Position numbers and translations under genes: made by a program. A stretch of DNA of 64,000 nucleotides, taken from the NCBI GenBank assembly GCA_016203225.1, contig JACQNC010000003.1, positions 2,537-66,536 on the forward strand. The letters are read 5' to 3'. The notes under the pieces are model-generated. The model was given only the letters and a program-made list of their open reading frames with translations, was not told the origin of the DNA and made no database searches. The DNA is from Candidatus Woesearchaeota archaeon. GTDB lineage: Archaea > Nanobdellota > Nanobdellia > Woesearchaeales > ARS49. Of the stretch, positions 5,467 to 61,010 are shown one piece after another. Position 1 is the stretch's first letter. Every line of letters starts with the position of its first letter.

Positions 5467-5790
5467 TTAGAATTCAATCACGAGTTTCTTGACATCCGGG
5501 TGGATGTATGCGTCACGGCCTTCCTTGATCTTGAGGTGCTCTGCGAGTTCTTTCGGGATCCTCACGGCCAACGAGTTTCCGGTGCGCGTGATCTTCGTCT
5601 TCCTACCAAGTCCCCAGATGCCCTTGGCTTTCGCCGCTGCCTCAATCGCGCTCACCACAGATTCCCCCAGGAAAAGTTCACCGCAATGAGTGCACTTTTC
5701 TCCTGAAAACAAGCCCAAATCAACTCCGAAGTAGACCTGATGCTCGCGCGCGGGCTTCAGTGTTCCTTTATCGCAAACAGGGCATTTCAT
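5467..5790 (-). CDS. Antitoxin-like protein: YgiT/MqsA-type zinc ribbon fused to AbrB/SpoVT domain
   Basis: CPVC...CTHC zinc ribbon, then the SpoVT/AbrB-like segment TRTGNSLAVRIPKELAEHLKIKEG. 4-nt overlap with the upstream DUF4258 gene. Confidence 0.7.
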   Translation of the reverse strand: MKCPVCDKGTLKPAREHQVYFGVDLGLFSGEKCTHCGELFLGESVVSAIEAAAKAKGIWGLGRKTKITRTGNSLAVRIPKELAEHLKIKEGRDAYIHPDVKKLVIEF

Positions 5791-6014
5791 GGGTACGGTT
5801 GGACGGTGATGATGTAATGCTCATTGTCGATTATCCTATAGACGACACTGAAATAAGCGAACACCGCGACATACTTGTCGGGAGCTTGCTTGAATGTGCT
5901 TCCGCGACGGATGGCGCGCTTGACCTCCTCGAGGCAGATGCCCCTCGCGACCATCTGTTCCGCAGCATGCGCGGTGAAGCGGACCTTCACTCTCGCGCCT
6001 CCTTGTAAGTACAT
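5787..6014 (-). CDS. DUF4258-like toxin
   Basis: 75 aa with a VRFTAHAAEQMVARGICLEEVKRAI pattern typical of DUF4258. Operonic with the antitoxin-like gene. Confidence 0.6.
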   Translation of the reverse strand: MYLQGGARVKVRFTAHAAEQMVARGICLEEVKRAIRRGSTFKQAPDKYVAVFAYFSVVYRIIDNEHYIITVQPYP

Positions 6015-6094
6015 GTACTACTTAATAGTTTCCATCGCATACAGGGAATGCACGCGACATTTTTTAAGTGCGTTGCGCAGAAAAAAGCGGAAGG

Positions 6095-6113
6095 CTTCCG
6101 AACATTTCGGAAG
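6095..6113. promoter_or_regulatory. Perfect 8-3-8 palindrome CTTCCGAA-CAT-TTCGGAAG within a TTCCG-rich block (6087-6142)
   Basis: Read directly from the sequence. Lies between the wHTH gene end (6145) and the TA operon start (6014). Related motifs occur at four other intergenic loci. Confidence 0.5.
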
Positions 6114-6144
6114 AATCACGGAAAAAGACGGAAGTATTCCGGGA

Positions 6145-6420
6145 TCAGAGTCCGAACGCTTCGGTCAATTCCTTGACCTTCTTGTATTCCTCTAAGAATT
6201 TCAGGCCTTGATCCGTGATCATGTACATGCTGCGTTCGTCCTCGTTGACCTCTGCCATCATCAACCCCTTCTGCTGGAGGTCCTCGACATAGCCCTTCAT
6301 GCGCTTGTGCGAGAGGTTGGATTTGTACAGAAGATGAGTCGGCTTTATCCTTCCACCCTTGTCCTGGATGGACTTCAGGATGTCGTACACGATCTCCAGA
6401 TGACTGCGTCTATCCGCCAT
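6145..6420 (-). CDS. Small winged-helix DNA-binding protein
   Basis: 91 aa. The pattern ILKSIQDKGGRIKPTHLLYKSNLSHKRMKGYVEDLQQKGLM resembles archaeal wHTH (HTH_45-like) proteins. Confidence 0.65.
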   Translation of the reverse strand: MADRRSHLEIVYDILKSIQDKGGRIKPTHLLYKSNLSHKRMKGYVEDLQQKGLMMAEVNEDERSMYMITDQGLKFLEEYKKVKELTEAFGL

Positions 6421-6423
6421 AAC

Positions 6424-7101
6424 TCACTTCGTGTACACCCTTACTATCATGCTGAGAAGGATCACGTAGGCGACGAGCCTGAACAGGTACGCTCCCACGA
6501 CGAGCGGACGGTACCAGTCCGCCGCGATGAACGCGATGAACTCCAGCACCATGAGCGCGAACGCGATGAACGTGAGCAACGTCGCAGAGCTACGCCGCGC
6601 GAGATAGTTGTCACGATACTGCCATGCGATGAACGAAAGCAGCGCGAGGGACACGAGATAGAACACGAGCGCGGACACACCGAAAGCGGAAGCCGCGAAA
6701 AGTATCATGAAGATGCTCAACAGGAAGACCAGTCTCTTGTTCGTGATGCGCATGCTGAGCGCGAGCAGGATGACGTAGGCGAACAGCACGAAGAGGAAAT
6801 ACACGAACCGTCCCATGCTGAATATGTCCTCGATCGTGTCCTTTGCCTGCGTGATATCTGTCCCTATCGCCACTCCCGAGACCTGCCCGAGCACGACGCC
6901 TGTCGTGATGGCGCGCGCGATGAAAGAGAGCGTGATGAGCAGGAATGCCAGGCTGAAGTAGAAATACTTGGATTCGCGCGTGAGCTTGAACGCCTTGTAG
7001 CCTACGATGGTGATCAGGACAGCGGCGAGTATGCTGAACACTTCCAGGATTATATCGATGCCGTGGAACCACAGCGGACTATAGACAAGTGTGACTGCCA
7101 T
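6424..7101 (-). CDS. Hypothetical polytopic membrane protein
   Basis: 225 aa with ~7 hydrophobic helices, ending 4 nt upstream of the wHTH gene start. CTTATAAAG TATA-like box ~35 nt upstream. Confidence 0.65.
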   Translation of the reverse strand: MAVTLVYSPLWFHGIDIILEVFSILAAVLITIVGYKAFKLTRESKYFYFSLAFLLITLSFIARAITTGVVLGQVSGVAIGTDITQAKDTIEDIFSMGRFVYFLFVLFAYVILLALSMRITNKRLVFLLSIFMILFAASAFGVSALVFYLVSLALLSFIAWQYRDNYLARRSSATLLTFIAFALMVLEFIAFIAADWYRPLVVGAYLFRLVAYVILLSMIVRVYTK

Positions 7102-7154
7102 CCAACCACCTAGTAGTCACCGACCAATGAAGCCCTTTATAAGCTTTGCGAATG

Positions 7155-7445
7155 TCTTGGCTGGATTCCTCCTGCAGAAGGCATTAATAAACGGTCCGGT
7201 ACGGTAGAGACATCAAATCGGAGGTGATATCCAATCGCAAAAGTCCGACGCCAAGACGCAATCGTAGCGAACCAGCATGACCCGGAATGGCGGGAGGTAT
7301 TCGGAGATGCCATCGCGGAAGATGACTGGGTTGTTGGCGGCTGATACTCACGACACACATCTTACCTCAGACATGGAGGTGAGGCACTCCACTCCAGGGC
7401 GGAAACGCCCGGAGTTATGATCACAACTCCTCCTTTGGGCTTTTT
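7155..7445 (+). ncRNA. Candidate structured ncRNA (possibly a reduced RNase P-like RNA); identity unverified
   Basis: ~290-nt gap without a credible ORF. Hairpins at 7163-7232, 7271-7334, 7361-7384 and 7392-7414 (GAAA tetraloop). AAAGUCC (7240-7246) can pair with GGGCUU (7437-7442). Followed by a T-run at 7441-7453. Confidence 0.35.
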
Positions 7446-7497
7446 ATTTTTTTCATTTCCGAAACTTTCTTATTGACTAACCGCAAACAATGAACGC

Positions 7498-8085
7498 ATG
7501 AACTTCCTGGTTCGCTGGATGGCAGGACTGTTGATCCCCGTGATCGTCCTCGGTGCGGCAGGCTACTACTTCATCAAGGATCTCGACCGCGCGAGCCTGG
7601 AACGGTTCGAGCTTGACGGCATCTCCGGGGTCACGACGAACTCGTTCACGTTCTCGGGAAACCTGGTCGTGAAGAACCCCAGCAAAGCGCCCATCCCGAT
7701 ACAGACCATCACGTACGATGTGATCCTCCAGGAGACCGGCGAGACTATCTCCTCAGGGACGTTGCCGTCGTTCTTGCTTTCTCCCGGCTCGAACACGATC
7801 CCGTTCGAGCAGCGTGTGAACTGGGTGCCGACAGCGACCCTTGCGGCGCAGCTCGTGACAGAAGACCACGTCTACGCGGTCGTGCAGGGCAGGATCAGGA
7901 TCGATCTGCCTCAGATCGACCAGTACGAGATCCCATTCAAGAAGACTGTCGACATCAAGCAGTACATCCTCCCGTTCGCGAAAGCGCCCTTACCGCTTGA
8001 GACGCTATCTGACGAAGTCGATACAGTCACGCCTGCATCTGACAAGGGCATCCTGCCCGATGTGCCGTTGGACGTCCTTCCTTAG
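7498..8085 (+). CDS. LEA_2 / LEA14-like (water-stress/hypersensitive response domain) membrane-anchored protein
   Basis: N-terminal TM helix followed by a beta-rich domain resembling LEA type 2. 195 aa. Confidence 0.6.
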   Translation: MNFLVRWMAGLLIPVIVLGAAGYYFIKDLDRASLERFELDGISGVTTNSFTFSGNLVVKNPSKAPIPIQTITYDVILQETGETISSGTLPSFLLSPGSNTIPFEQRVNWVPTATLAAQLVTEDHVYAVVQGRIRIDLPQIDQYEIPFKKTVDIKQYILPFAKAPLPLETLSDEVDTVTPASDKGILPDVPLDVLP

Positions 8086-10070: not shown

Positions 10071-10856
10071 ATGCTTCGCCAGAGTTTCATCTTCCTACCG
10101 GGAGTGGGAGAACACAGGGAGCGCCAGCTATGGCAACGCGTGGCAGACTGGAACTCGTTCCTTGACGCAAAAAGATTGCCGGGATTCTCTGAACGTATAA
10201 AGCACGGCCATGACCAGACCATCCTCCGCCTCAAGGACGCGATCTACGCGGACGACACGGCAGCACTCGCGAACGCGTTCCCTTCTGTCGAACACTGGAG
10301 GATGTATCCGGATTACCGCGACGAGGCTGCGTTCCTCGACATCGAGACCGGTCCGGCGGGAGACGTGAGCATGGTCGGCGTGTTCGACGGCCGCGAGACG
10401 AAGACGTTCGTGCAAGGAGTCAATCTTGACAGACAGACGCTGCTCGACGAATTGCAGCGATACAAACTACTCGTGACCTTCAACGGCAAAAGTTTCGACG
10501 TGCCTGTGCTGAAGCGATGGTTCAGGCTACCTTTCACGATGCCGCACGTGGATCTGCGGCACGTGTGCGCATCTATCGGGTTGACCGGCGGTTTGAAGAC
10601 CATCGAGAAGACCATGGACATCAAGCGTCCTGAGAGCATCAAGCACGTGACAGGACAAGACGCCGCCGAGCTGTGGCGTTGCTGGAAGGCGACGCGCGAC
10701 AAGGACTTCTTCGACATGCTCGTGACGTACAACGAGGAGGACTGCGTCAATCTGAAGACAATCGCGGACAGGGTTGTGCCGCAGCTTTGGAATTCCGTCC
10801 GAAGAAAGGATGTTGTCGTCGGAAAGTTTCCGGAAAACTCACCACAGCACACATAA
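10071..10856 (+). CDS. RNase H-like 3'-5' exonuclease superfamily protein (YprB/COG3359-like)
   Basis: N-terminal LPGVGEHRERQLW HhH-like segment, FLDIET acidic motif, NGKSFDVPVL and YNEEDC, typical of PolB-exo-like RNase H fold proteins. Confidence 0.7.
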   Translation: MLRQSFIFLPGVGEHRERQLWQRVADWNSFLDAKRLPGFSERIKHGHDQTILRLKDAIYADDTAALANAFPSVEHWRMYPDYRDEAAFLDIETGPAGDVSMVGVFDGRETKTFVQGVNLDRQTLLDELQRYKLLVTFNGKSFDVPVLKRWFRLPFTMPHVDLRHVCASIGLTGGLKTIEKTMDIKRPESIKHVTGQDAAELWRCWKATRDKDFFDMLVTYNEEDCVNLKTIADRVVPQLWNSVRRKDVVVGKFPENSPQHT

Positions 10857-10870
10857 AGAATTCTTACGTC

Positions 10871-11047
10871 ATGAAGGGCATGGCAAAAAAGAAGTCAGCG
10901 GAGAAATGCCCTGTGGACGCGATGATGGAGCACATCTCGAAAGATGCGGTAGTGAAGAAAGTGGAGCTTAAGATGTCTCCTGAAGAATCCAAGGTGTTTT
11001 ATCGCTGGTTCAAGTTCATCGGCACGAAACGGATAACTCATGGATGA
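10871..11047 (+). CDS. Small hypothetical protein (58 aa)
   Basis: ATG-initiated part of ORF 10673..11047 lying in the intergenic space. Lys-rich, no family, AT-richer segment. Confidence 0.3.
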   Translation: MKGMAKKKSAEKCPVDAMMEHISKDAVVKKVELKMSPEESKVFYRWFKFIGTKRITHG

Positions 11048-11228
11048 ACCAACCATTTCATTCGGGCTTTCGTTTCATCTTTCTCCCGGAGAAGACGGAC
11101 TCAAGAAGCGGGTGAAATTCATCAATGAAGGAGTGCCGCGTGAAGTGGTCTTGACGCTCATCCGCAGCTGGCTCAGGCACGAGAACGATGACTATCAGAA
11201 ATCATTCGATGCGTCATTCAACGACTAA
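11040..11228 (+). CDS. Small hypothetical protein (62 aa)
   Basis: ORF overlaps the previous small ORF by 8 nt. No recognisable family. Confidence 0.3.
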   Translation: MDEPTISFGLSFHLSPGEDGLKKRVKFINEGVPREVVLTLIRSWLRHENDDYQKSFDASFND

Positions 11229-19680: not shown

Positions 19681-20136
19681 ATGAAGTGCCCATTTTGCCT
19701 GCATACCGAGACGAAAGTCGTGGACAGCCGCGAGACGACCGATCTCGCGGCGACGCGCAGACGAAGGGAATGCCTCGATTGCGAGAAACGCTTCACCACG
19801 TACGAACAACTGGACACGGTGGACTTGGCAGTGGTCAAGAAGGACGGACGTCGCGAGGCGTTCAACAAGGAGAAACTGACGCGCGGCATGCTCAAGGCAT
19901 GCGAGAAACGACCGATAGGCCGCGAGAAGGTCGAGGCGTCTGTCGCGGCCATCGAAGCGCAGCTGCGCAAAGGCGACCGCGCAGAGGTCAGCTCGCGCAA
20001 AGTGGGCGAGCTCGTCATGGAGCAACTGAAGAAGCTGGACCACGTCGCGTACGTGCGCTTCGCTTCCGTATACCGTTCCTTCCGCGACATTTCACAGTTC
20101 GAGAAGGAGATCAAGATGTTGAAACAGCAGCGATGA
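19681..20136 (+). CDS. nrdR: Transcriptional repressor NrdR (zinc ribbon + ATP-cone)
   Basis: MKCPFCLHTETKVVDSRETTD...RRRRECLDCEKRFTTYE zinc ribbon followed by an ATP-cone. 151 aa. Confidence 0.9.
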   Translation: MKCPFCLHTETKVVDSRETTDLAATRRRRECLDCEKRFTTYEQLDTVDLAVVKKDGRREAFNKEKLTRGMLKACEKRPIGREKVEASVAAIEAQLRKGDRAEVSSRKVGELVMEQLKKLDHVAYVRFASVYRSFRDISQFEKEIKMLKQQR

Positions 20137-20145
20137 GGTGTTGAG

Positions 20146-24297
<4,152 letters not shown>

Positions 24298-24338
24298 GTT
24301 CCGCAACGTTTTTATCCTTCTACCTTGCCGGAGGCATC

Positions 24339-32827: not shown

Positions 32828-32845
32828 GGCGATGATTAAGCAGCC

Positions 32846-32863
32846 TTTTCCGTGATTCTTCCG
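32846..32863. promoter_or_regulatory. 18-mer TTTTCCGTGATTCTTCCG, exact reverse-complement copy of 6108-6125
   Basis: Checked base by base. Lies ~70 nt upstream of the Lrp-like gene. Confidence 0.5.
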
Positions 32864-32930
32864 GTTTTTGTGAAAGAACCACGGAAATTTCTCGGCAAGA
32901 CATAAAAAAAGCAGACACTCCATTCGTGAC

Positions 32931-33368
32931 ATGGACGAACGCGACCAAAACCTGGTGACGGAACTGAGGAAGGACGGCAAAGCGACACTGACAGGCATCA
33001 AAAGGGTCACGAATATCCCTATCTCGACATTGCACGAACATTTCGGCAAGCTCGCATGCATCACCAGATTCGTGACGCTCATCGACTTCGTGAAGGTCGG
33101 ATTCCCTGTGCGGCGCATGTACGCTGCGGACTTGAAGCGCGCGCTGCCTGATGACCTGCTGAACAGTCCGAACATAAACACGCTGAGCCAGCTCTCGCGC
33201 GGCGGCGACGTGTTCATAGACGCGCTGTTCAAGACGGCAGCCGAGGCTGACGCTTTCGAGGAAGCGCTCGAACGCGTCGCGAAGCACGTGCAGGTCATCC
33301 ACGTCCTGACAGAACTGAAGCGCGAAGCGTTCCTGACAGATTCAAAGCACTGGATTTTTCCGGAATAA
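32931..33368 (+). CDS. Lrp/AsnC-like transcriptional regulator
   Basis: N-terminal HTH NLVTELRKDGKATLTGIKRVTNIPISTLHEHF and a C-terminal RAM-like alpha/beta half. 145 aa. Confidence 0.6.
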   Translation: MDERDQNLVTELRKDGKATLTGIKRVTNIPISTLHEHFGKLACITRFVTLIDFVKVGFPVRRMYAADLKRALPDDLLNSPNINTLSQLSRGGDVFIDALFKTAAEADAFEEALERVAKHVQVIHVLTELKREAFLTDSKHWIFPE

Positions 33369-33395
33369 CCGGAAAAACAACGCTTTTTCTCATTT

Positions 33396-33416
33396 TTTTC
33401 GGAAACTTTCCGAAAA
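33396..33416. promoter_or_regulatory. Perfect 10-1-10 palindrome TTTTCGGAAA-C-TTTCCGAAAA in a TTCCG-rich block (33355-33450)
   Basis: Read directly from the sequence. Lies between the Lrp-like gene and the S8 protease gene. A neighbouring imperfect palindrome CCTTTCCGACATTCTCGGAAGG (33425-33446) resembles 6095-6113. Confidence 0.5.
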
Positions 33417-33490
33417 GTTCGTAACCTTTCCGACATTCTCGGAAGGTTTCCGGTATTTTCTCCGCAACCGCGTTCAAAAGCACCATCTCG

Positions 33491-35338
33491 TTGGTTGGCA
33501 TGGAAACACTCATCACCGCCAACCAAGAACGCGCGTACGCCGTCGCGAACACGACAGAACAGGGGATCTACGCGATCAACAATAATCTCGTGATCCCGGC
33601 GAGCGCGGCATACGCGATCAAGCTAAGGACTTTCCCGTCGCTGTTCGGCGAACGCAAAGTCTCTCCGGCAGCGTTCGCGAGGGAACGTGAGTCGGTCAAC
33701 GACTCCGGAACGCTCATCGGCTACGACAATGGCATCAAACTGCACCAAGTCATAGAATGCCACACAACATCCATCAAGACATCGTGCGTCTCGCACAGAA
33801 CGAACGTAAACGTCACGCTCGGAGACCCTCTCGAGCGACTGGTCGAGTTCTACCGCGCGCATCCTCAGGAGGCGCTGCAGTTCGGGTTCGCGACAAAGGA
33901 CGGAGTCAAGACACTGCACGCGCCCGGAACAGTCTACGGAGAGGCGATACCGTGGAACTACAGGGATGGCGGCAACGTCAGCACGTTCAAGAACGCGGTG
34001 AACCAGCCATACCATCCGCGGCTCCTGGAAGCGCTCGGACGGGCGGACCTCAAGCGCGCGCGGAAGACGATAGACGCGTTCCTGGATGAGGACTACTGCA
34101 TCATAGACCGCGCCATGGTGACGATTGGCCGCGTGTTTTCAGGACCGGTCGGAACCCCCACAATCACTGTCCCGCGCCGCACGCCTGAAGAGGAGCGAAA
34201 GCAAGACCTGCTCGCGAGCAACCAGGAACGCGCGCGGATAATGATCAACGTCCGCGAGACAGGGAACGCGCGCCAGAACTATGAATGTCGACAGGAACTC
34301 GCGGACCTGCTCACGAAGGACTACAAGCTGCCATGCACGGCGCTGATGACCGCATCTACGATCGTGATGACAACGGACACGAACGAGGCCGGCCGGTGCA
34401 TGACACACCTGCAGGCGCGGCGGTATCAGGCAGCGGCGGTGTCAAGCACGCGACTGTCAAGGATGCGCCTAGTTGCGCTGCCGAAGCCGAAGACACGCAC
34501 GCAGCGCAGGCAAGGCCAGCTCAGCCACGTCGCGCTGCTGAACGCGTACGCGGCGCACCGCATCACTACAGGCGAGGGCATAGTCGGAGCCGTGATGGAC
34601 ACCGGCGTCGACTACACGCACGAGGCGCTCGCCGCGAACTTCGGGACGGACAAGGGATACGATTTCGTGCGCGACACTACGGACCCGATGGACCTCGAAG
34701 GCCACGGTACGCACGTGGCAGGCATCTGGGCCTCTGTCGCGCCAGGAGTGCGGCTGAAGGCAGTCCGCGTGCTCGACGAGTGGGGCCGGGGAAACGAAGC
34801 TGACATCCTGCTGGGCTATGAATACTGCTATCGGAACCAGATCCCGATCATCAACTGCAGCTTCGGCAGCCCATTCGCGTCAGAGGAGGAACGCCAGGTC
34901 GTGGAAGCGGCGCCATCGTGCGGCTGCATGATCGTCGCCGCCGCCGGCAACGACTCATCAGGCGAGCGAGACGAGGACATCCCTAGCTATCCAGCAGTGT
35001 TCTCGGGCGTGCAGAGCATCGGCAGCGTCAACCCCGACCGCAAGCACTCGTCATTCAGCAACATGGGCTTCGTGTCGTTCTCGGCACAGGGCGAGGACGT
35101 GTTGTCGACACTGCCGGACGACTCGTACGGCACGATGGACGGCACATCGATGGCGTCGCCTTCTGTCGCTGGCGCGTTGACGCTGCAGCTGGCGGCGAAT
35201 CCGCGCTCACTCGAGGACAGGCTCATGATCGCGCACGCGCGATGCTTCACGGAGTTCGGAAAGGCTTATCCTGAAAATGAATGGACGCGCAGGTTCGGGT
35301 ACGGCATCCCCGACTGCCTGCGGCTGGTGGAACGATGA
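33491..35338 (+). CDS. Subtilisin-like (S8) serine protease with ~340-aa N-terminal region of unknown function, no signal peptide
   Basis: Catalytic triad contexts VMDTGVD, HGTHVAG and GTSMASP lie in the C-terminal ~270 aa. The N-terminus is non-hydrophobic. Confidence 0.8.
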   Translation: MVGMETLITANQERAYAVANTTEQGIYAINNNLVIPASAAYAIKLRTFPSLFGERKVSPAAFARERESVNDSGTLIGYDNGIKLHQVIECHTTSIKTSCVSHRTNVNVTLGDPLERLVEFYRAHPQEALQFGFATKDGVKTLHAPGTVYGEAIPWNYRDGGNVSTFKNAVNQPYHPRLLEALGRADLKRARKTIDAFLDEDYCIIDRAMVTIGRVFSGPVGTPTITVPRRTPEEERKQDLLASNQERARIMINVRETGNARQNYECRQELADLLTKDYKLPCTALMTASTIVMTTDTNEAGRCMTHLQARRYQAAAVSSTRLSRMRLVALPKPKTRTQRRQGQLSHVALLNAYAAHRITTGEGIVGAVMDTGVDYTHEALAANFGTDKGYDFVRDTTDPMDLEGHGTHVAGIWASVAPGVRLKAVRVLDEWGRGNEADILLGYEYCYRNQIPIINCSFGSPFASEEERQVVEAAPSCGCMIVAAAGNDSSGERDEDIPSYPAVFSGVQSIGSVNPDRKHSSFSNMGFVSFSAQGEDVLSTLPDDSYGTMDGTSMASPSVAGALTLQLAANPRSLEDRLMIAHARCFTEFGKAYPENEWTRRFGYGIPDCLRLVER

Positions 35339-42089: not shown

Positions 42090-43900
42090 AGATCGTTTTG
42101 CAACCGGACGGGAAAAGAAGCGTCATCGAAGGAGACGCGTCCTTCCTGCTCACCAACAGGCACGGCGGATTCGCGCTGCTCGGAAGCACACCCAAGAGCA
42201 GGTACGAAGGGGTGTTCTTCAGGCACGGCAACGACGTGTTAAAGGTCATCGAGGACATCTCTGTCGGCGGCGCGATCCAGCACCTGCACGTCACGGACAA
42301 GGTCGTGCGCGAGCGCGACGGCCTCACGGAGACGTTCTTCATGCCTCACCATGACGCGTTGCTCTACCAGTTGAGCAAGCGCGCAGAAGTCGAATTGTCC
42401 TTGGACTGCAAGGCGATCTTCGACAATCGCGCCTGGGGACGCGCATACAGGCTCAGCGTTGAGCACAAGTGCATCGTCATCTCGTTCGCGAAACGCAACG
42501 ACCCTCGCGACGGTACTTCAGATTTTTCTGAATATGATATCCATTTGGCCATCTTCGGCGAAGGGCTCGAGTATCTTCCTGTCGAGAAGTGGGAAGAGCA
42601 TCACTACGAGGCGGATCAGCGACGCAATTCGTGGCCGAGCTCGCGCTGGGTCTTCAAGCCGTGCAAACTGCGGTTGCAGGAAGCGGTATTCGCGTTCGCC
42701 GTCGACAAAAACAAGGCAGTCGAGACCGCGATCAACGTGTACGCACAGCGCAAGAAATACATTGATGTAGAGAAGAAACGAGTGGACGCGTTGCTGAAAC
42801 CGGGACTAAAGAACCAGGAACTCGACATCGCATACAAGTCAGCCATCCGCGCGGTCGATGCGTTGTGGGCGGGCGACGGTTACTACGCAGGATTGCCGTG
42901 GTTCTGCCAGGTCTGGACACGCGACGAATTGGTCTCGACGAAGGCGTTGATGCTTACCGGACAATACGAACGCGCAAAAAAAGTGTTGTGGAAATATCTG
43001 ACCTCGGATGATGCCGCTGTGTTGCCGCGCTTTTTTGGAAAGACATTCTCTCATGCCGCGAAACCCGAAGTCCCTGCCGCCGACGGCATGGGCTGGCTGT
43101 TCGTGCGCATCGCAGAGTTTTTGCAAGTGCTCGAGAAGGAACGCAAGCTCAAGACGCACATGTCGAGCAAGGACCTGGAATGGATCGAGCACAAACTCAT
43201 GAACGTTTTGGATCGTTTGTTCAAGGAACGCTTCAAGGACGGCCTTATCGTCAACCGCGCCGAAGAAACCTGGATGGACACGACCTTCGGCGACGACCGC
43301 CGCGACGGAGCGCGGATCGAGATCCAGGCTTTGACGCTGGCGATGCTCACGTTCCTTCACAGACTGACCGGAAAAGAGGACCCCCGCGAAAAAGCGCTGC
43401 GCGACGCGACGCGGAAACACTTCTGGACTGGCACGATGATCAAAGACGGCAAGGAAGAACCAATTCTACGCCCCAACCTCTTCCTTGCCGCTTATGTTTA
43501 CCCCAAACTCCTCTCGAAGAATGAGTGGGTCACCTGCATCGACACCGCACTCGAGGGCCTGTGGCTCGATTGGGGAGGGTTGGCGAGCATCGACAAGAAA
43601 CACCCATTGTTCACTCCGAAATCGACGGGCGAGAACGTGAAATCGTACCACCGCGGAGATTCATGGTTCTGGGTGAACAATGTTGCTGCGATCGTCATGC
43701 ATCGCATGGATGCGAAACGATACAGCAAGCACGTGCGGCAGATACTGAAAGCGAGCCTGCACGACCAGCAAACGAACATCGTAGGTTTCTCGAGCGAACT
43801 GAGCAGCGCGGAACAGCTGCGGTCAGAAGGCTGCGGAGCGCAGCTATGGTCGAGTGCGACGCTGGTCGAGTTGCTGTATGAGTTAGAGAATCACAGGTAA
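42086..43900 (+). CDS. Glycogen debranching enzyme (amylo-alpha-1,6-glucosidase, GDE_C family)
   Basis: ATGA overlap with galT. Motifs YYAGLPWFCQVWTRDE and HRGDSWFWVNN. Confidence 0.85.
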   Translation: MKIVLQPDGKRSVIEGDASFLLTNRHGGFALLGSTPKSRYEGVFFRHGNDVLKVIEDISVGGAIQHLHVTDKVVRERDGLTETFFMPHHDALLYQLSKRAEVELSLDCKAIFDNRAWGRAYRLSVEHKCIVISFAKRNDPRDGTSDFSEYDIHLAIFGEGLEYLPVEKWEEHHYEADQRRNSWPSSRWVFKPCKLRLQEAVFAFAVDKNKAVETAINVYAQRKKYIDVEKKRVDALLKPGLKNQELDIAYKSAIRAVDALWAGDGYYAGLPWFCQVWTRDELVSTKALMLTGQYERAKKVLWKYLTSDDAAVLPRFFGKTFSHAAKPEVPAADGMGWLFVRIAEFLQVLEKERKLKTHMSSKDLEWIEHKLMNVLDRLFKERFKDGLIVNRAEETWMDTTFGDDRRDGARIEIQALTLAMLTFLHRLTGKEDPREKALRDATRKHFWTGTMIKDGKEEPILRPNLFLAAYVYPKLLSKNEWVTCIDTALEGLWLDWGGLASIDKKHPLFTPKSTGENVKSYHRGDSWFWVNNVAAIVMHRMDAKRYSKHVRQILKASLHDQQTNIVGFSSELSSAEQLRSEGCGAQLWSSATLVELLYELENHR

Positions 43901-43939
43901 ACGCCTTCATATTCCGTAACGCTTTAAAATCATGATATC

Positions 43940-44515
43940 TTGTCCTATGCTATGGACGACAAGATCATCCTCGACAGAGAGAGCTTCAAGGCGCTCGCCG
44001 CCGAGAGCAGGATCAGGATCCTGAAATTACTTCATCAGCGGAAGCACATGCAGGCGGAGCTTGCAGGCGCGCTTGACATGAGCCTCCCTGCTGTGAAAGA
44101 GCACCTGGACGCGTTGGAGAAGGCAGGGCTCATATTGCGCAAGGACGAAGGGCGTAAGTGGAAGTATTACGAGTTGACGCAGAAAGGGAAAGCGGTGCTT
44201 GATCCGGAACAGAAACGCATCTGGATCGTTTTGAGCCTGTTCATCATCTCTGTCGCGGGCGGAATAGCTGCGTATGGTAGAGTTCTGCTTTCGGACTACC
44301 TCAATCCTGCAGGGGTAGCGCTTGCCAAGAGCGCAGAACTGGCGGAAAGCACTGCTGGGGACGCGACCATGATGACCATTCCTGCAGCCGCGCAGGATGG
44401 CGTCCCTTGGGCGTTGATAGTGTACGGCGTTTGGCTGGCGCTTCTGCTCATAATGTTTTTATATTCGTATATCCGAAGACGAAGTTACGCAGGCAGATAC
44501 CTTACCAAGTCGTAG
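43940..44515 (+). CDS. ArsR-family wHTH regulator fused to C-terminal TM helices
   Basis: ESRIRILKLLHQRKHMQAELAGALDMSLPAVKEHLDALEKAGLI followed by two hydrophobic helices. Alternative ATG at 43952. Confidence 0.7.
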   Translation: MSYAMDDKIILDRESFKALAAESRIRILKLLHQRKHMQAELAGALDMSLPAVKEHLDALEKAGLILRKDEGRKWKYYELTQKGKAVLDPEQKRIWIVLSLFIISVAGGIAAYGRVLLSDYLNPAGVALAKSAELAESTAGDATMMTIPAAAQDGVPWALIVYGVWLALLLIMFLYSYIRRRSYAGRYLTKS

Positions 44516-56478: not shown

Positions 56479-56542
56479 TGTCGAATGTTTTTATATGCTG
56501 TTCTGCACGTTCCGTCCATGAACCCGCGATACTCTTCTGCGT

Positions 56543-56645
56543 CCCCCGGTGCGATGTGCACAAGCAGGTTTGTGTCGCTTCTGGCTTTGGATTCAATAGC
56601 ACTGGAGCGACGTCAATCGTGCCTGGGAAGCATTGCCGGGGACGA
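56543..56645 (+). repeat. Intergenic palindromic repeat family, copy E (short form)
   Basis: AAGCAGGTTTGTGTCGC (56562-56578), GGATTCAATAG and GCGACGTCAATCGTGCCTGGG (to 56627). Lies between the ATPase stop and the GT3 start. Confidence 0.7.
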
Positions 56646-56651
56646 GGCCTG

Positions 56652-58439
56652 ATGGAACCTAAGGCGAAGCTATGCTGCGAGATCTCATGGGAGGTCTGCA
56701 ACAAGGTGGGCGGGATCTACACAGTCGTCTCGTCTAAAGCGCAGCGCATGGTGGAGCACTACAAGGAGAAATACTTCGCCATCGGACCTTACTTCCCGGC
56801 GAAGGCGCTGGGCAACTTCGAGGAGAAGGTGCCGCCGGATTCATGCAAGCAGGTGTTCGAGACTCTCAAGAGCGAAGGAATCGAGTGCCATTACGGGACG
56901 TGGCTAATCAAGGGCAACCCGAACGCCATCCTGATCGACTTCTCAAATTTCGCGAAACACAAGGACGGCATCAAGAGCTTCCTCTGGGACACGTACAAGA
57001 TAGATTCCCTCGGGACAGACTATTACGACTTCGACGAGCCGGTCGTCTGGGCATGGGCCGCAGGCAAGCTTGCCGAGAGACTGGCCGCCGCGTGCGAAGG
57101 GTCCTGCGTCGCGCAATGCCACGAGTGGCTGGCGGGCGGCGCGCTACTATACCTCAAATCGCACAACGTGCGCGTCGCGACCGTGTTCACGACGCACGCG
57201 ACGATGCTCGGACGGACGCTGGCGAGCGAAGGCATCCTATACCGCGTCATCGACACGGTCGATGCCGATGAGGAGGCGGCGAAGCGCGGGCAGGGCCTGA
57301 AGGCCAAGCACCTGCTCGAGAAGGCGTCTGCGCAGCATTGCGAGATATTCACTACCGTCTCGGAGATCACGGGCATGGAGGCCGAGAAGCTCCTCGGCAG
57401 GAAGCCCGACGTGCTGCTGCCGAACGGGCTCGACATGTCGCGCTTCCCCACGTTCGAGGAGTCGAGCATCAAGCACAAGCTCATGAAGAGCAAGATCTTC
57501 GACTTCCTCATCTCGTACTTCTTCCCGTACTATTCCTGGGACCTCGACAACACGCTCGTGTTCTTCCTGGCAGGCAGGTACGAATTCCACGACAAGGGCA
57601 TCGACATCTTCATCAAGGCGCTGGGCAAGCTGAACGACCGGCTGAAGGCCGAGAATAGCGAACACACTGTCGTCGCGTTCTTCTGGGTGCCGGGCGACAT
57701 CAAGGCCATCAAACCGATGCTGCTCGAGAGCAAGACATACTACAAGGACCTGAAGGAGAGCATCGGCGACAACCTAGACGAGATCGAGCACAACATCCTG
57801 CACGGACTGATCGCGAACCTGCCCCTGACCCAGGAGCAATTGTTCAACGAGGACCTCCGCGACGACGTTAAGCGCAAACTGCTGCGGTTCAGGCGCAAAG
57901 GCAAACCGCCGATCGCGACGCACGACTTATACAACGAACCGCAAGACCTGATCACGCAGACGCTGCTGAAGCTCGGATTGGACAACGACGCGGACGACCG
58001 AGTGAAGGCCGTGTACTACCCGATCTACCTGTCAGGCGCGGACAATCTTTTGGACCTCACGTATTACGAAGCCATGCAGGGCTCGCACCTGGGCGTGTTC
58101 CCTTCGTATTACGAGCCGTGGGGATACACCCCCTTGGAGGCCGGCGCGTTGAGCGTTCCTTCGGTCACCACGGACCTTGCCGGTTTCGGAAGGTTCATCT
58201 GCACGGAGTGCGTGCCTGGCCCAAACCCGGGCATCTGGGTGTTGAAGCGCTGGCAGCATTCCGACGAAGACGTCGTCGACCAGCTCGCGGAACAGATGCA
58301 CTACTACGCGACCCTGCCGAAGGAAGATAGGATCGACAACAAGATCGCCGCGCGCGAGATCGCGGCCATGGCCGACTGGAAGAGCTTCATCGAGCGCTAT
58401 ATCGAAGCGCAGAACAAGGCAGTCGAGAAGCTTCCGTAA
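56652..58439 (+). CDS. GT3-family (eukaryote-type) glycogen synthase
   Basis: Starts at the internal Met of ORF 56391..58439. N-terminus CCEISWEVCNKVGGIYTVVSSKA and later YEPWGYTPLEA resemble eukaryotic Gsy-type synthases. Confidence 0.8.
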   Translation: MEPKAKLCCEISWEVCNKVGGIYTVVSSKAQRMVEHYKEKYFAIGPYFPAKALGNFEEKVPPDSCKQVFETLKSEGIECHYGTWLIKGNPNAILIDFSNFAKHKDGIKSFLWDTYKIDSLGTDYYDFDEPVVWAWAAGKLAERLAAACEGSCVAQCHEWLAGGALLYLKSHNVRVATVFTTHATMLGRTLASEGILYRVIDTVDADEEAAKRGQGLKAKHLLEKASAQHCEIFTTVSEITGMEAEKLLGRKPDVLLPNGLDMSRFPTFEESSIKHKLMKSKIFDFLISYFFPYYSWDLDNTLVFFLAGRYEFHDKGIDIFIKALGKLNDRLKAENSEHTVVAFFWVPGDIKAIKPMLLESKTYYKDLKESIGDNLDEIEHNILHGLIANLPLTQEQLFNEDLRDDVKRKLLRFRRKGKPPIATHDLYNEPQDLITQTLLKLGLDNDADDRVKAVYYPIYLSGADNLLDLTYYEAMQGSHLGVFPSYYEPWGYTPLEAGALSVPSVTTDLAGFGRFICTECVPGPNPGIWVLKRWQHSDEDVVDQLAEQMHYYATLPKEDRIDNKIAAREIAAMADWKSFIERYIEAQNKAVEKLP

Positions 58440-58450
58440 ATTCTCCGCGT

Positions 58451-58495
58451 AATTCGGAATATTTCTGAATTCATTTCCGAAAAGTATATAAGGAG
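58451..58495. promoter_or_regulatory. TTCCG-motif block plus TATA box and GGAGG upstream of vapBC
   Basis: AATTCGGAATATTTCTGAATT imperfect palindrome, then CATTTCCGAAAAG (compare 7454-7465), then GTATATAAGGAGG. Confidence 0.45.
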
Positions 58496-58514: not shown

Positions 58515-58748
58515 ATGATGCAGCTCAGGATCGGACAGAAAGGCGAGATCGTCATCCCGAAGAAGATCCGCGAAGCGCTCGGGCTCTCCCGCGACCGACC
58601 GGTGCTGTTGGAGGTCAGAGACAAGACCATCCATCTCAGGACGACCGCAGAGGACATCATCACGCAATGGGAGGCGCAAGCGAAACGCATCAACCTCAAG
58701 CCGAAAGACCTAGTCTACGGTGACCGGCTCTACGAGGACGTGTTCTGA
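58515..58748 (+). CDS. vapB: AbrB/SpoVT-type antitoxin (VapB-like)
   Basis: RIGQKGEIVIPKKIREALGL SpoVT-AbrB motif. 77 aa. Confidence 0.75.
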   Translation: MMQLRIGQKGEIVIPKKIREALGLSRDRPVLLEVRDKTIHLRTTAEDIITQWEAQAKRINLKPKDLVYGDRLYEDVF

Positions 58749-59140
58749 TGTATATCGATGCGAACATCTTCGCATTCGCGGCGATGCTCCCGGGCGCGGA
58801 AGGCGCGAAAGCCCGCAAACTCCTCGAGACTGTCGTGAAGGGCAGGAAAGCGCTCACAAGCGCATTGACGATCGACGAGGTGATGTGGGTCCTCCGCAAG
58901 AGCGATCGCGCCACGGAGACCAGGACCGTCGTCGAAAACATCTATGCGTTACCTAACCTCGAGATCAAGGAAGTCGCCGCCTCATTGCCCTTGCGCGCAC
59001 TGGATTTCATGGAACGCCATAAGCTCAAGCCTCGTGATGCGCTCCACCTCGCGGCGATGGAGCAGTTCAACATCCATGAGATCGCGAGCGATGATGCCGA
59101 TTTCGATAGGATCCCCGGGATAAAGAGGATGAAGCTATGA
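58748..59140 (+). CDS. vapC: PIN-domain ribonuclease toxin (VapC)
   Basis: MYIDANIF (first Asp), IDEVMW, PRDALHLA and SDDADFD acidic residues. The start overlaps the vapB stop. Confidence 0.8.
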   Translation: MYIDANIFAFAAMLPGAEGAKARKLLETVVKGRKALTSALTIDEVMWVLRKSDRATETRTVVENIYALPNLEIKEVAASLPLRALDFMERHKLKPRDALHLAAMEQFNIHEIASDDADFDRIPGIKRMKL

Positions 59141-59182: not shown

Positions 59183-59509
59183 ATGTCCAACGAAGCGTTC
59201 GATGCGGCATACCGTAGCTATCTGGGGCTTGAGCCCTCGCTCAAATCGGACCCGGAATTGGCGCATCTCGGCGAGACCGTGCGCATCACGCTGTCGCTCC
59301 GCGATCCCGTGCAGGGGTTGACGCTCGTGCGGCTGTGCGACGTCATCACTGAGAAAGGCGTCAACATGGGCAAGGTCCGGGAAGACGTGCTGTCGTACCT
59401 CCAGAATGAAGCGCGCGTCACGTACGATAAGATCGCCGAACTGCTGAAATCGGAACGCATCGCGGCCGAGAACAACAAAATACGCGAGAACGAGCCAGTC
59501 AAACCTTGA
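59183..59509 (+). CDS. Hypothetical protein (108 aa)
   Basis: ORF with gene-like composition. Its 3' end overlaps the convergent phosphatase gene by 11 nt. No family recognised. Confidence 0.45.
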   Translation: MSNEAFDAAYRSYLGLEPSLKSDPELAHLGETVRITLSLRDPVQGLTLVRLCDVITEKGVNMGKVREDVLSYLQNEARVTYDKIAELLKSERIAAENNKIRENEPVKP

Positions 59510-60940: not shown

Positions 60941-61010
60941 CACGCCTCTTTTCATTCCTGACAAGTTGACAAACGTTTTTAAATGCATCGCTCTGTTGCT
61001 CTGCTGAAAG

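What the first reader, a model, noticed from the sequence alone, without database searches (positions are those of the whole stretch)
6087..6142. Recurrent TTCCGAAA/TTTCGGAA palindrome blocks at five intergenic loci, with an identical 18-mer at two of them
The blocks are 6087-6142, 7451-7477, 32843-32895, 33355-33450 and 58451-58483.
- Perfect palindromes: CTTCCGAA-CAT-TTCGGAAG (6095-6113) and TTTTCGGAAA-C-TTTCCGAAAA (33396-33416).
- A related imperfect palindrome: TTCCGACATTCTCGGAAG (33428-33445).
- TTTTCCGTGATTCTTCCG (32846-32863) is the exact reverse complement of 6108-6125.
- CATTTCCGAAA recurs at 7454-7464 and 58472-58482.

The blocks lie upstream of the DUF4258 TA operon, the LEA-like gene, the Lrp-like gene, the S8 protease and vapBC. 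This fits a shared operator for a dimeric wHTH or Lrp-type regulator.
Basis: seen in the sequence. Interest (0 to 1): 0.65.

Follow-up and report, generated by a model that had tools for sequence, protein, structure and literature searches.

The report
Conserved double-box operator upstream of archaeal promoters
The repeated TTCCG/CGGAA blocks are real, conserved regulatory DNA: pairs of 13-bp boxes at a fixed distance upstream of several promoters in a groundwater DPANN archaeon, most likely bound by the neighbouring Lrp-type regulator. This is an ordinary kind of switch in a little-studied lineage.

Summary
The strings exist as described and are far from chance. The repeating unit is better read as a 13-bp box, CGGAA-N3-TTCCG. 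There are 5 perfect copies against 0.18 expected. Boxes sit 20-21 bp apart.

A distal box (CGTrA-N3-TTCCG) and a proximal box share one layout in eight promoters, followed by a BRE-like CGAAA(G/C) in most of them and a TAAAAA-type TATA. The proximal box centre is exactly 54 nt from the start codon in seven of them. These include the S8 protease orthologues of five species whose proteins have diverged to 33-39% identity. That is strong evidence for a position-constrained cis-regulatory operator.

The gene at 32931-33368 is a divergent Lrp/AsnC (FFRP) regulator, flanked by arrays. Its DNA-contact residues (L, P, I, S, T, H) fit the published FFRP code for xGxAA half-sites, so it is the best candidate binder (about 0.5). 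The adjacent HTH_45 wHTH is not supported: seven loci carrying its orthologues lack the motif. The LEA block is only a half-site or BRE-like element.

Verdict: a new member of a known kind (an Lrp-type operator array and regulon), of moderate interest.

The parts
6088..6100 (-). Proximal box CGGAAGGCTTCCG of the DUF4258/MazE toxin-antitoxin operon promoter
   Evidence: Perfect box. Its centre is 30 bp upstream of the TATA-like CTTAAAAAA at 6060-6068.
6108..6120 (-). Distal box, CGTGATTCTTCCG on the minus strand. It is part of the 18-mer shared with block 3.
   Evidence: 20 bp from the proximal box. The 18-mer 6108-6125 is the reverse complement of 32846-32863.
6129..6141 (-). Third box, CGGAAGTATTCCG
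   Evidence: Perfect box, 21 bp from the distal box.
6060..6068 (-). TATA-like element CTTAAAAAA of the TA operon, preceded by GCGCAACG. The likely start is GTG 5990, with an AAGGAGG upstream.
   Evidence: Sequence. The layout matches the S8 promoters, especially that of L100.
5467..6014 (-). Target operon: a DUF4258 toxin-like gene (5787-6014) and an antitoxin with a MazE/AbrB domain (5467-5790)
   Evidence: Pfam. The operon is absent from the loci of relatives that carry the wHTH orthologue.
7452..7464 (+). TTCATTTCCGAAA: a single half-site or BRE-like element abutting the TATA-like CTTTCTTATTGA of the LEA_2 gene (7498-8085). A weak member.
   Evidence: The same 13-mer lies at the same offset in the vapBC promoter. 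There are no boxes at -54 or -74. The LEA orthologue promoter in L085 lacks the element.
10820..10832 (+). Perfect box CGGAAAGTTTCCG upstream of the small-ORF pair 10871/10880-11047 and 11040-11228.
   Evidence: The centre is 30 bp upstream of ACATAAAGAA and 54 nt from the second ATG, at 10880.
32851..32863 (+). Box CGTGATTCTTCCG, centred at -74 from the Lrp-like gene's ATG
   Evidence: The block is 93% identical to L083, against 69% at third codon positions and 37% in the distal spacer.
32882..32894 (+). Box CGGAAATTTCTCG, centred at -43. It ends 6 nt before the TATA-like CATAAAAAAAGCA (32901-32913), so it overlaps the BRE position.
   Evidence: Conserved in L083 and L084.
32931..33368 (+). 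Divergent Lrp/AsnC (FFRP) regulator gene: the candidate binder
   Evidence: PDB phmmer hits: 7fby, E 5.5e-7; PH0140 (9w4v), E 7.9e-7; FL11/PH1519, E 1e-5. The alignments cover residues 1-121. Its orthologues hit HTH_AsnC-type.
33358..33374 (+). TTCCGGAATAACCGGAA palindrome over the stop codon of the Lrp-like gene, followed by T5 and T7 runs. Terminator-like, or an extra site.
   Evidence: Invariant in the window, L083 and L084. Forms a 9-bp-stem hairpin.
33400..33412 (+). S8 promoter box at -94 (CGGAAACTTTCCG)
33420..33432 (+). S8 promoter distal box at -74 (CGTAACCTTTCCG)
   Evidence: A box occupies the same position in L083, L003, L004 and L100.
33440..33452 (+). S8 promoter proximal box at -54 (CGGAAGGTTTCCG)
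   Evidence: Centred exactly 54 nt from the ATG in all five species.
33472..33481 (+). TATA-like GTTCAAAAGC of the S8 promoter (CCTAAAAAGC in relatives)
   Evidence: Invariant AAAAGCA columns in the four-species alignment.
33500..35338 (+). Target gene: S8 subtilase, the first gene of a conserved multi-gene cluster
   Evidence: Pfam. The cluster is conserved in L001, L083 and L100.
58435..58447 (+). vapBC promoter distal box at -74 (CGTAAATTCTCCG). It overlaps the glycogen synthase stop codon.
58455..58467 (+). vapBC promoter proximal box at -54 (CGGAATATTTCTG)
   Evidence: One mismatch. The centre is 54 nt from ATG 58515.
58470..58493 (+). TTCATTTCCGAAAAG (half-site plus BRE-like element) followed by the TATA box TATATAAGG
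   Evidence: Sequence.
58515..59140 (+). Target operon: vapB (MazE/AbrB type) and vapC (PIN)
   Evidence: Pfam.

Best explanation
The blocks are arrays of a 13-bp palindromic operator box. The consensus is CGGAA-N3-TTCCG, with a recurrent distal variant CGTrA-N3-TTCCG. Boxes are spaced 20-21 bp apart, which is two helical turns.

The arrays belong to a shared promoter layout:
- a distal box;
- 7 nt;
- a proximal box;
- a T-rich spacer;
- a BRE-like CGAAA(G/C) or GCAAC, in most of the promoters;
- a TAAAAA-type TATA box about 28-31 bp from the proximal box centre;
- the start codon 54 nt from the proximal box centre. Most mRNAs here look leaderless or short-leadered.

The most likely binder is the divergent Lrp/AsnC-family (FFRP) protein encoded at 32931-33368. 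One dimer would bind each box, and neighbouring dimers would cooperate on the same face of the helix.

- **Targets.** At the S8 protease cluster, vapBC, the DUF4258/MazE operon and the small-ORF operon, the proximal box sits at a fixed position upstream of the BRE and of weak, atypical TATA elements. That is the geometry of archaeal Lrp-type activators such as Ptr2, LysM and Ss-LrpB.
- **Its own gene.** At its own promoter one box (-43) overlaps the BRE position. This suggests autorepression or a concentration-dependent switch.

Shown: the boxes exist, they are non-random, and they are conserved in sequence and position. Inferred: which protein binds them, the sign of regulation and the effector.
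For: **Non-randomness.**
- 5 perfect boxes against 0.18 expected.
- 4 of them in non-coding DNA against 0.02 expected; 0 of 2000 simulations reach 4.
- The double-box signature is two boxes 19-21 bp apart with at most 3 mismatches in total. In 1.4 Mb of held sequence it occurs only in the window, its own contigs L001 and L002, and the relatives L003, L083 and L100. There are no hits in the other loci.

**Position.**
- The proximal box centre is exactly 54 nt from the ATG of the S8 orthologues in the window, L083, L003, L004 and L100.
- The same holds for vapBC, and for the second ATG of the small ORF.
- There is a second box at -74 in the five S8 promoters and in vapBC.
- The S8 N-terminal domain is only 39% (L003) and 33% (L100) identical, yet the box, its spacing and the AAAAGCA element persist.

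**Purifying selection.** Block 3 plus its TATA is 93% identical between the window and L083. Third codon positions of the adjacent gene are 69% identical and the distal spacer 37%.

**Candidate regulator.**
- Full-length similarity to the archaeal FFRPs 7fby, PH0140 and FL11 (E 5.5e-7 to 1.5e-5).
- Its orthologues hit HTH_AsnC-type.
- At FL11 contact positions 24, 34, 35, 36, 37 and 39 it has L, P, I, S, T and H, invariant PISTLH in its three orthologues.
- The published FFRP code reads Thr37 as C/T at position a, Ser36 as G at b, and Leu24/Ile35 as A-A at d-e. The FL11 optimum is CCGAAA[AAT]TTTCGG (PMC2715240). That predicts xGxAA-N3-TTxCx, which the box CGGAA-N3-TTCCG fits at 4 of 5 positions.
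- The gene is flanked on both sides by arrays.

**Known Lrp behaviour (review PMC2995911).**
- Centre-to-centre spacing of two or three helical turns.
- For activators, a dimer site just upstream of the BRE at a highly constrained position.
Against: **There is no binding or expression data at all.**

**Against the Lrp-like protein as the binder.**
- The gene is present only in the closest relatives (window, L083, L084). It is absent from the RNR-S8 spacer in L003 and L100 and from the fetched L004 locus, where the boxes persist.
- A peptide-seeded scan of GTDB representative genomes found no relative. That filter needs exact 8-mers, so it is insensitive.
- The Ser36/Thr37/Leu24 code is shared by several FFRPs, so it is not highly discriminating. 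Position c (G here, A for FL11 with the same His39) is not predicted.
- Pfam does not call the protein at its curated thresholds.
- The structure model was unusable (pLDDT 42).

**Against a clean box model.**
- The central triplets are not A/T-only (GGC, GGT, GTA), unlike canonical FFRP boxes.
- Some half-sites are 10-11 bp apart in direct orientation (6108, 6119, 6129; the L100 array). A simple one-dimer-per-box model does not explain that.
- The alternative register, TTCCG-N7-CGGAA, cannot be excluded as the bound unit.
Confidence: 0.6

Rival explanations
1. The boxes are a genuine operator but are bound by a different regulator. Candidates are the membrane-anchored ArsR/HTH_5 protein (43940-44515), the HTH_45 wHTH (6145-6420), the AbrB-type antitoxins, or a factor encoded outside the window.
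For: - The boxes persist at the S8 orthologues of L003, L004 and L100, which have no adjacent Lrp-like gene.
- The ArsR-type gene lies 8-10 kb downstream of the S8 gene in the window, L083 and L100.
- Both TA operons that carry boxes encode AbrB/MazE DNA-binding domains.
- Block 1 abuts the wHTH gene.
Against: - wHTH: seven loci carrying its orthologues have no boxes, and block 1 lies at the gene's 3' end.
- Antitoxins: the S8 promoters of four other species have the boxes but no TA genes nearby.
- ArsR-type protein: no boxes at its own promoter beyond a single TTCCG, and no specificity argument.
- The 5-3-5 box form, the two-turn spacing and the contact-residue fit point to an FFRP.
Confidence: 0.25
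2. The blocks are copies of a portable promoter cassette or mobile repeat. On this view, sequence spread by duplication or insertion, for instance together with the TA modules, rather than independently maintained operator sites.
For: - Similarity extends beyond the boxes. The DUF4258 promoter and the L100 S8 promoter share the box, the T-rich spacer, GCG(C/A)AACGCAC and TAAAAAA.
- There is an identical 18-mer at two loci.
- Both TA operons are lineage-specific insertions.
Against: - No terminal inverted repeats, target duplications or long repeat families surround the blocks.
- The copies differ outside the functional elements.
- The S8 boxes sit at an orthologous, fixed position across five species, which shows maintenance by selection rather than recent spread.
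- This reading is compatible with operator function and is not an alternative to it.
Confidence: 0.1
3. The palindromes act at the RNA level, as hairpins that terminate or stabilise the upstream transcripts (the wHTH operon, the Lrp-like gene, the glycogen synthase).
For: - Blocks 1 and 4 fold better than shuffles (z -2.8 and -3.8).
- 33355-33377 forms a 9-bp hairpin followed by T runs at the end of the Lrp-like gene.
- T5-T7 tracts lie inside blocks 1 and 4.
Against: - Blocks 3 and 5 do not fold unusually (z -1.8 and -0.9).
- In L004 the boxes lie between divergent genes. In L003 and L100 only two boxes exist and there is no long hairpin.
- What is conserved is the half-site sequence and the distance to the TATA and the ATG, not pairing. 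Substitutions in L083 and L100 hit one half only.
- Archaeal termination needs only oligo-T, by general knowledge.
Confidence: 0.04
4. Chance clustering of an A/T- and CG-containing word in AT-rich spacers.
For: The overall CGGAA/TTCCG count is not above expectation (160 against 177). At one mismatch the box is only 8 against 3.1 expected.
Against: - Perfect boxes, clusters and double boxes exceed every simulation.
- There are no double boxes in the unrelated control loci, most of the 1.4 Mb held.
- Conservation across species is positionally exact.
Confidence: 0.01

Closest known systems
FL11 (PH1519, Pyrococcus OT3) and the FFRP box form abcdeWWWedcba (PMC2715240)
   Same: - A 13-15 bp palindrome with a 5(6)-3-5(6) geometry.
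- The FL11 optimum, CCGAAA[AAT]TTTCGG, differs from CCGGAA-N3-TTCCGG at one base per half.
- The window protein aligns with FL11 over residues 1-116 and shares Leu24, Ser36, Thr37 and His39.
   Different: - The central triplet is not restricted to A/T.
- Position c is G rather than A.
- Residues 34 and 35 are Pro and Ile, as in Ss-LrpB, rather than Ala and Glu.
- The protein is too divergent for Pfam thresholds.
- No effector is known.
Ptr2 (Methanocaldococcus jannaschii), an Lrp-family activator
   Same: - Two regularly spaced upstream sites next to the BRE/TATA of target promoters, with a constrained position.
[quoted passage not shown]
   Different: - Different box sequence and different targets: a protease cluster and toxin-antitoxin operons rather than rb2 and fdxA.
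- Activation is inferred from geometry only.
- The gap between the proximal box and the BRE-like element is about 10 bp, not a few bp.
Ss-LrpB (Sulfolobus solfataricus)
   Same: [quoted passage not shown]
- Cooperative dimers and a dual autoregulatory switch.
- Pro34, Ile35, Ser36 and Thr37 are identical to the window protein.
   Different: - Ss-LrpB has Arg39 and the box TTGCAA[AAT]TTGCAA; here His39 and CGGAA.
- Box spacing and regulon differ.
NrpR operator GGAA-N6-TTCC (Methanococcus maripaludis), recalled from memory and not checked here
   Same: A GGAA/TTCC inverted repeat used as an archaeal operator.
   Different: The spacer is 6, not 3, the protein family is different, and no NrpR gene was seen. 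This is a resemblance only.

Membership tests
Lrp/AsnC (FFRP) regulators: protein 32931-33368 | N-terminal AsnC-type helix-turn-helix | tested here: met
   PDB phmmer aligns residues 1-41 with the HTH of 7fby, PH0140 and FL11 (E 5.5e-7 to 1.5e-5). The orthologues P0002 and P0003 hit PF13404 (E 3e-5 and 2e-4), below the curated cut-off.
Lrp/AsnC (FFRP) regulators: protein 32931-33368 | C-terminal RAM (alpha-beta sandwich) effector and oligomerisation domain | tested here: inconclusive
   The PDB alignments continue through residue 115-121 into the RAM domain. There is no Pfam AsnC_trans_reg hit, and the AlphaFold model is unusable (pLDDT 42.5).
Lrp/AsnC (FFRP) regulators: protein 32931-33368 | Forms dimers or higher oligomers and binds DNA | not testable with these tools
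   Needs purified protein.
FFRP/Lrp-type operator array | A 13-bp palindromic box of the form abcde-WWW-edcba | tested here: inconclusive
   The 5-3-5 palindrome is met, with 5 perfect copies. The central triplet is often not A/T (GGC, GGT, GTA, ACT).
FFRP/Lrp-type operator array | Neighbouring boxes two or three helical turns apart, on one face of the helix | tested here: met
   Spacings are 20, 20, 21, 20 and 31 bp. The criterion is from PMC2995911.
FFRP/Lrp-type operator array | Activator type: a core site just upstream of the BRE at a constrained position | tested here: met
   The proximal box centre is 54 nt from the ATG in 7 of 8 promoters and 28-31 bp from the TATA centre. The functional sign was not tested.
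FFRP/Lrp-type operator array | Box sequence matches the contact residues of the proposed binder | tested here: met
   L, P, I, S, T and H at FL11 positions 24 and 34-39 predict (C/T)G?AA. The observed half-site is CGGAA. Position c is undetermined.
Mobile repeat (MITE-like element) | Near-identical copies with terminal inverted repeats and target-site duplications | tested here: not met
   No such families or boundaries surround the blocks. Only the short functional elements are shared.
General archaeal core promoter (BRE/TATA) | Present at most promoters, immediately upstream of the TATA box | tested here: not met
   Most of about 40 spacers have no CGGAA/TTCCG word. The usual sequence upstream of the TATA box here is YAAYG. 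Only the 8-mers of blocks 2 and 5 sit at the BRE position.
Operator of the adjacent HTH_45 wHTH (6145-6420) | Motif associated with the regulator gene or its promoter in relatives | tested here: not met
   The loci carrying its orthologues, L085-L091 (74-88% identical proteins were listed), have no boxes or clusters in spacers.

The most novel reading that the evidence does not exclude
The double box, BRE-like element and atypical TATA, at a fixed distance from the start codon, form a portable promoter cassette. In this DPANN lineage the cassette has been placed in front of unrelated, newly acquired modules: two toxin-antitoxin operons and a small-ORF pair. That wires them into the same feast/famine (FFRP) regulon as an ancestral S8 protease and membrane-protein cluster. 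It would be a compact stress or host-interaction programme in a reduced-genome archaeon, and an example of regulon growth by promoter copying.
Probability: 0.15. Interest if true: 0.6.

Novelty: new member of a known kind. Interest (0 to 1): 0.4.

Why it matters
I found no described cis-regulatory motif or regulon for DPANN or Woesearchaeota-like archaea.

This analysis gives three things:
- a precise, testable operator: CGTrA-N3-TTCCG, 7 nt, CGGAA-N3-TTCCG, at -74 and -54;
- a candidate regulator with a residue-level specificity argument;
- a small candidate regulon that links a conserved subtilase cluster with toxin-antitoxin modules.

The mechanism itself, Lrp-type boxes at helical spacing, is well known in cultivated archaea. 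The value is as an entry point into regulation in an uncultured, reduced-genome lineage, not as a new principle.

Tried and rejected
**Searches that gave nothing useful**
- A genome-contig scan with the Lrp-like protein found no relatives.
- A metagenome-contig scan with the S8 protein found only distant catalytic-domain hits, no orthologues.
- A homologue search for the Lrp-like protein found only 3 close sequences, so co-occurrence of the regulator and the motif across genomes could not be tested.
- tRNA and Rfam scans of the window found nothing.
- Only DNA groundwater metagenome runs hold the sequence, so no transcript starts are available.
- I tried to extend beyond the window through Logan contigs. 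The contigs were shorter than the window, and one protein was not on record.

**Analyses that failed or had to be redone**
- AlphaFold on the 3-sequence alignment gave pLDDT 42.5. The model was unusable and was not sent to fold search.
- The first two gene models (greedy by length or by GC3) were wrong in several places and were replaced by a codon-usage model. That model is still wrong around 60071-62176.
- The first shuffle script timed out.

**Readings I rejected**
- The wHTH as regulator. I fetched seven loci carrying its orthologues and found no motif.
- TTCCGAAA as a general BRE. The usual sequence upstream of the TATA box here is YAAYG.
- NrpR-type GGAA-N6-TTCC. The spacing does not fit.
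- HSE- or STAT-like readings. They are irrelevant in archaea.

**A corrected error**
I first mis-indexed the DUF4258 TATA-like element as 6050-6059, which gave a distance of 39 bp from the box. The correct position is 6060-6068, which gives 30 bp.
Full report
**1. Observation**

- Two perfect palindromes: 6095-6113 and 33396-33416.
- One imperfect palindrome: 33428-33445.
- An 18-mer at 32846-32863 that is the exact reverse complement of 6108-6125.
- The shared CATTTCCGAAA, which is really a shared 13-mer, TTCATTTCCGAAA, at 7452-7464 and 58470-58482.

Pfam confirms the flanking genes.
- DUF4258 (5787-6014, minus strand) with a MazE/AbrB antitoxin (5467-5790, minus strand).
- An HTH_45 winged-helix gene (6145-6420, minus strand).
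- LEA_2 (7498-8085).
- An S8 subtilase (33500-35338).
- VapB and VapC (58515-59140).

The window looks archaeal. TATA boxes lie about 25-30 nt upstream of start codons, so mRNAs are mostly leaderless. The closest relatives of its proteins are labelled Woesearchaeota or Nanoarchaeota. The sequence is held by groundwater metagenome runs.

**2. Is it more than chance?**

| Measure | Observed | Expected | Source |
|---|---|---|---|
| TTCCGAAA/TTTCGGAA, whole window | 6 | 2.35 | |
| Same 8-mer in non-coding DNA (about 10% of the window) | 5 | 0.45 (0 of 2000 simulations reach 5) | |
| CGGAA/TTCCG 5-mer words, whole window | 160 | 177 | |
| Clusters of at least 3 such words | 6 | 0.75 | |
| Largest cluster | 6 words | at most 4 in simulations | |

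The 5-mer words are not enriched overall. What is non-random is their arrangement.

**3. Re-reading the unit**

I listed every CGGAA/TTCCG with its orientation. The recurrent arrangement is CGGAA-N3-TTCCG, a 13-bp palindrome.
- It has five perfect copies (6088, 6129, 10820, 33400, 33440) against 0.18 expected. The maximum in 300 simulations is 2.
- Four of the five lie in non-coding DNA, against 0.02 expected.
- Degenerate copies fill the gaps, so that box centres are 20-21 bp apart: 33406, 33426 and 33446; 6094, 6114 and 6135; 58441 and 58461.

The identical 18-mer is TTTTC plus the distal-type box CGTGATTCTTCCG.

The alternative register, TTCCG-N7-CGGAA, cannot be excluded as the bound unit. 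However, isolated N3 palindromes exist at 10820 and at L004 9518.

The sixth locus (10820-10832) was not in the finding. It precedes two small ORFs.

**4. A shared promoter layout**

I anchored the promoters on the proximal box. The common architecture is:
- a distal box, CGTrA-N3-TTCCG;
- 7 nt;
- a proximal box, CGGAA-N3-TTCCG;
- a T-rich spacer;
- a BRE-like element, CGAAA(G/C) or GCAAC, in most of the promoters;
- a TAAAAA-type TATA element, 28-31 bp from the proximal box centre;
- the start codon.

The proximal box centre is exactly 54 nt from the ATG at:
- the window's S8 gene;
- vapBC;
- the second ATG of the small ORF (10880);
- the S8 orthologues of L083, L003, L004 (minus strand) and L100.

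The DUF4258 operon has the same spacing from box to TATA but a longer leader, with an AAGGAGG before GTG 5990.

The Lrp-like gene's own promoter is different. Its boxes lie at -74 and -43, and the -43 box ends 6 nt before the TATA-like element, so it overlaps the BRE position.

The LEA promoter has only the 13-mer half-site or BRE-like element next to its TATA, and no boxes. A distant LEA orthologue (L085) lacks even that. Block 2 is therefore a weak member.

**5. Conservation**

- The S8 N-terminal domain is only 75% identical in L083, 39% in L003 and 33% in L100. Even so, the -54 and -74 boxes, their spacing and the AAAAGCA element are kept.
- In L004 the S8 gene is divergent from the ferredoxin-RNR genes, yet the box stays with S8. 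A further box faces the ferredoxin gene.
- Between the window and L083, block 3 plus its TATA is 93% identical. Third codon positions of the adjacent gene are 69% identical, and the distal spacer is 37% identical.
- The double-box signature occurs in 1.4 Mb of fetched sequence only in the window, its own contigs and three relatives. There are no hits in the other, mostly unrelated loci.

This rules out chance. It also argues against a recently spread mobile repeat, since no terminal repeats or long repeat families flank the blocks.

**6. Who binds?**

*The HTH_45 wHTH.* This small protein is conserved across Woesearchaeota-like genomes and always follows a DUF7521-like membrane protein. Seven loci carrying its orthologues (L085-L091) have neither boxes nor the TA operon. 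Block 1 is at its 3' end. I conclude that block 1 belongs to the TA operon promoter and that the wHTH is an unlikely binder.

*The gene at 32931-33368.* It has no Pfam hit above threshold, but it matches archaeal Lrp/AsnC proteins in the PDB from residue 1 to about residue 115-121 (7fby E 5.5e-7; PH0140 E 7.9e-7; FL11/PH1519 E 1e-5). Its orthologues hit HTH_AsnC-type.

The published recognition scheme for archaeal FFRPs (PMC2715240) says:
- boxes have the form abcdeWWWedcba;
- FL11 prefers CCGAAA[AAT]TTTCGG;
- residues 24, 34-37 and 39 contact bases a to e;
- Thr37 reads T/C at a, Ser36 reads G/A at b, and Leu24 and residue 35 read A-A at d and e.

Aligned to FL11, the window protein has Leu, Pro, Ile, Ser, Thr and His at these positions. 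PISTLH is invariant in its three orthologues. This predicts (C/T)G?AA, and the observed half-site is CGGAA. The fit is real but not highly discriminating, because several FFRPs share Ser-Thr.

The review PMC2995911 reports three matching features:
- centre-to-centre spacings of two or three helical turns;
- for activators, a dimer site just upstream of the BRE at a highly constrained position;
- the Ptr2 gene overlapping its target's control region.

All three match what is seen here. The gene's stop codon lies inside the conserved TTCCGGAATAACCGGAA palindrome, which opens the S8 control region.

Evidence against the assignment:
- the gene is missing from the RNR-S8 spacer of L003 and L100 and from the fetched L004 locus, although the boxes persist there;
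- no relative was found in GTDB representative genomes by an insensitive peptide-seeded scan;
- the central triplets of the boxes are not A/T-only;
- the AlphaFold model was unusable.

I put the Lrp-like protein as the binder at about 0.5, and another regulator at about 0.25-0.3. An example of the latter is the ArsR-type membrane-anchored protein at 43940-44515, which lies 8-10 kb downstream of the S8 gene in the window, L083 and L100.

**7. Mechanism proposed**

- *Shown:* a conserved, position-constrained double box upstream of weak, atypical TATA elements.
- *Inferred:* dimers bind each box and cooperate over two helical turns. At the -54/-74 promoters the complex most likely helps recruit TBP and TFB, as a Ptr2, LysM or Ss-LrpB type activator does. 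At its own promoter the -43 box overlapping the BRE would give autorepression or a concentration switch.
- *Unknown:* the effector.
- *Not explained:* direct-repeat half-sites at 10-11 bp (6108, 6119, 6129; the L100 array) may reflect binding by a higher oligomer.

**8. RNA-level rival**

- Blocks 1 and 4 fold better than shuffles (z -2.8 and -3.8). The hairpin at 33355-33377 followed by T runs looks like a terminator for the Lrp-like gene.
- Blocks 3 and 5 do not fold unusually.
- The long hairpin is absent in L003, L004 and L100.
- What is conserved is the half-site sequence and its distance to the TATA and the ATG.

I treat folding as a by-product of palindromic operators, apart from a possible dual role for 33355-33377.

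**9. Novelty and score**

The mechanism class is well known in cultivated archaea. New here are the box sequence, the exact -54/-74 architecture, the lineage and the candidate regulon (an S8 cluster, two TA operons, a small-ORF pair and the regulator itself). I found no description of such a motif. This is a new member of a known kind, with interest 0.4.

The most novel reading still open is that the whole cassette of box, BRE and TATA has been copied in front of newly acquired modules. Both TA operons are lineage-specific insertions. On that reading the regulon grew by promoter propagation. I give this a probability of about 0.15.

Noticed in passing
window 19681-20136 and 20146-24297; L004 9885-9975; L100 7960-8055: An NrdR-like repressor gene (Zn ribbon plus ATP-cone) sits directly upstream of a 1383-aa ORF at 20146-24297 that I did not scan; in relatives the NrdR gene adjoins a class II-type ribonucleotide reductase. 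Relatives carry paired TTTTCTATAT(N)GAAAA palindromes upstream of the second reductase gene, which may be NrdR boxes.
   Followed up: no
window 6145-7101; L085-L091: A DUF7521-like membrane protein followed by a 91-aa HTH_45 winged-helix protein is a conserved two-gene unit in every relative fetched. More than 250 homologues of the wHTH protein were found, mostly labelled Woesearchaeota or Nanoarchaeota.
   Followed up: partly
window 5467-6014 and 58515-59140: Both toxin-antitoxin operons are missing from the corresponding positions in relatives: after the wHTH gene in L085-L091, and after the glycogen synthase in L086. They are lineage-specific insertions, yet they carry the same layout of box, BRE and TATA as the S8 gene.
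   Followed up: partly
window 33355-33400: A 9-bp-stem hairpin (TTTTTCCGG-AATAA-CCGGAAAAA) spans the stop codon of the Lrp-like gene and is followed by T5 and T7 runs. It is terminator-like and invariant in L083 and L084.
   Followed up: partly
window 32847-32860 and 32874-32887: A 14-nt inverted repeat (TTTCCGTGATTCTT and AAGAACCACGGAAA) with a 13-nt spacer makes block 3 one large palindrome. The AAGAAYCACGGAA unit recurs in block 1 and in L004.
   Followed up: partly
window about 24298-24338 and about 43900-43939: A single TTCCG lies 5-6 nt upstream of the TATA box (TTCCGCAACG-TTTTTATCC and TTCCGTAACGC-TTTAAAATC). These are the promoters of a LUD-domain gene and of the ArsR-type membrane-anchored regulator. 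They may be lone half-sites or part of an extended BRE.
   Followed up: no
window 56478-58439 and the genes downstream of the S8 cluster: The window encodes a eukaryote-type glycogen synthase (PF05693). In the relatives L083 and L100, GalP_UDP_transf and GDE_C (debranching-type) genes lie downstream of the S8 cluster, and the window appears syntenic. This looks like a glycogen metabolism set in a DPANN-like archaeon.
   Followed up: no
window 7102-7497; L085 9000-9315: The spacer between the membrane-protein operon and the LEA gene holds a small conserved ORF. It is 38-52 aa in relatives and apparently truncated to about 15 codons in the window. A conserved CTTTGGGCTTTTTATTTTT stretch follows it.
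   Followed up: no
window 59499-62273: My codon-usage gene model called one 701-aa minus-strand ORF here. Gene calls on the identical Logan contig give His_Phos_1 (minus strand), PRPP synthase (minus strand) and a DUF4147/MOFRL glycerate-kinase-like gene (61011-62273, plus strand). The effect on the non-coding statistics is negligible.
   Followed up: yes
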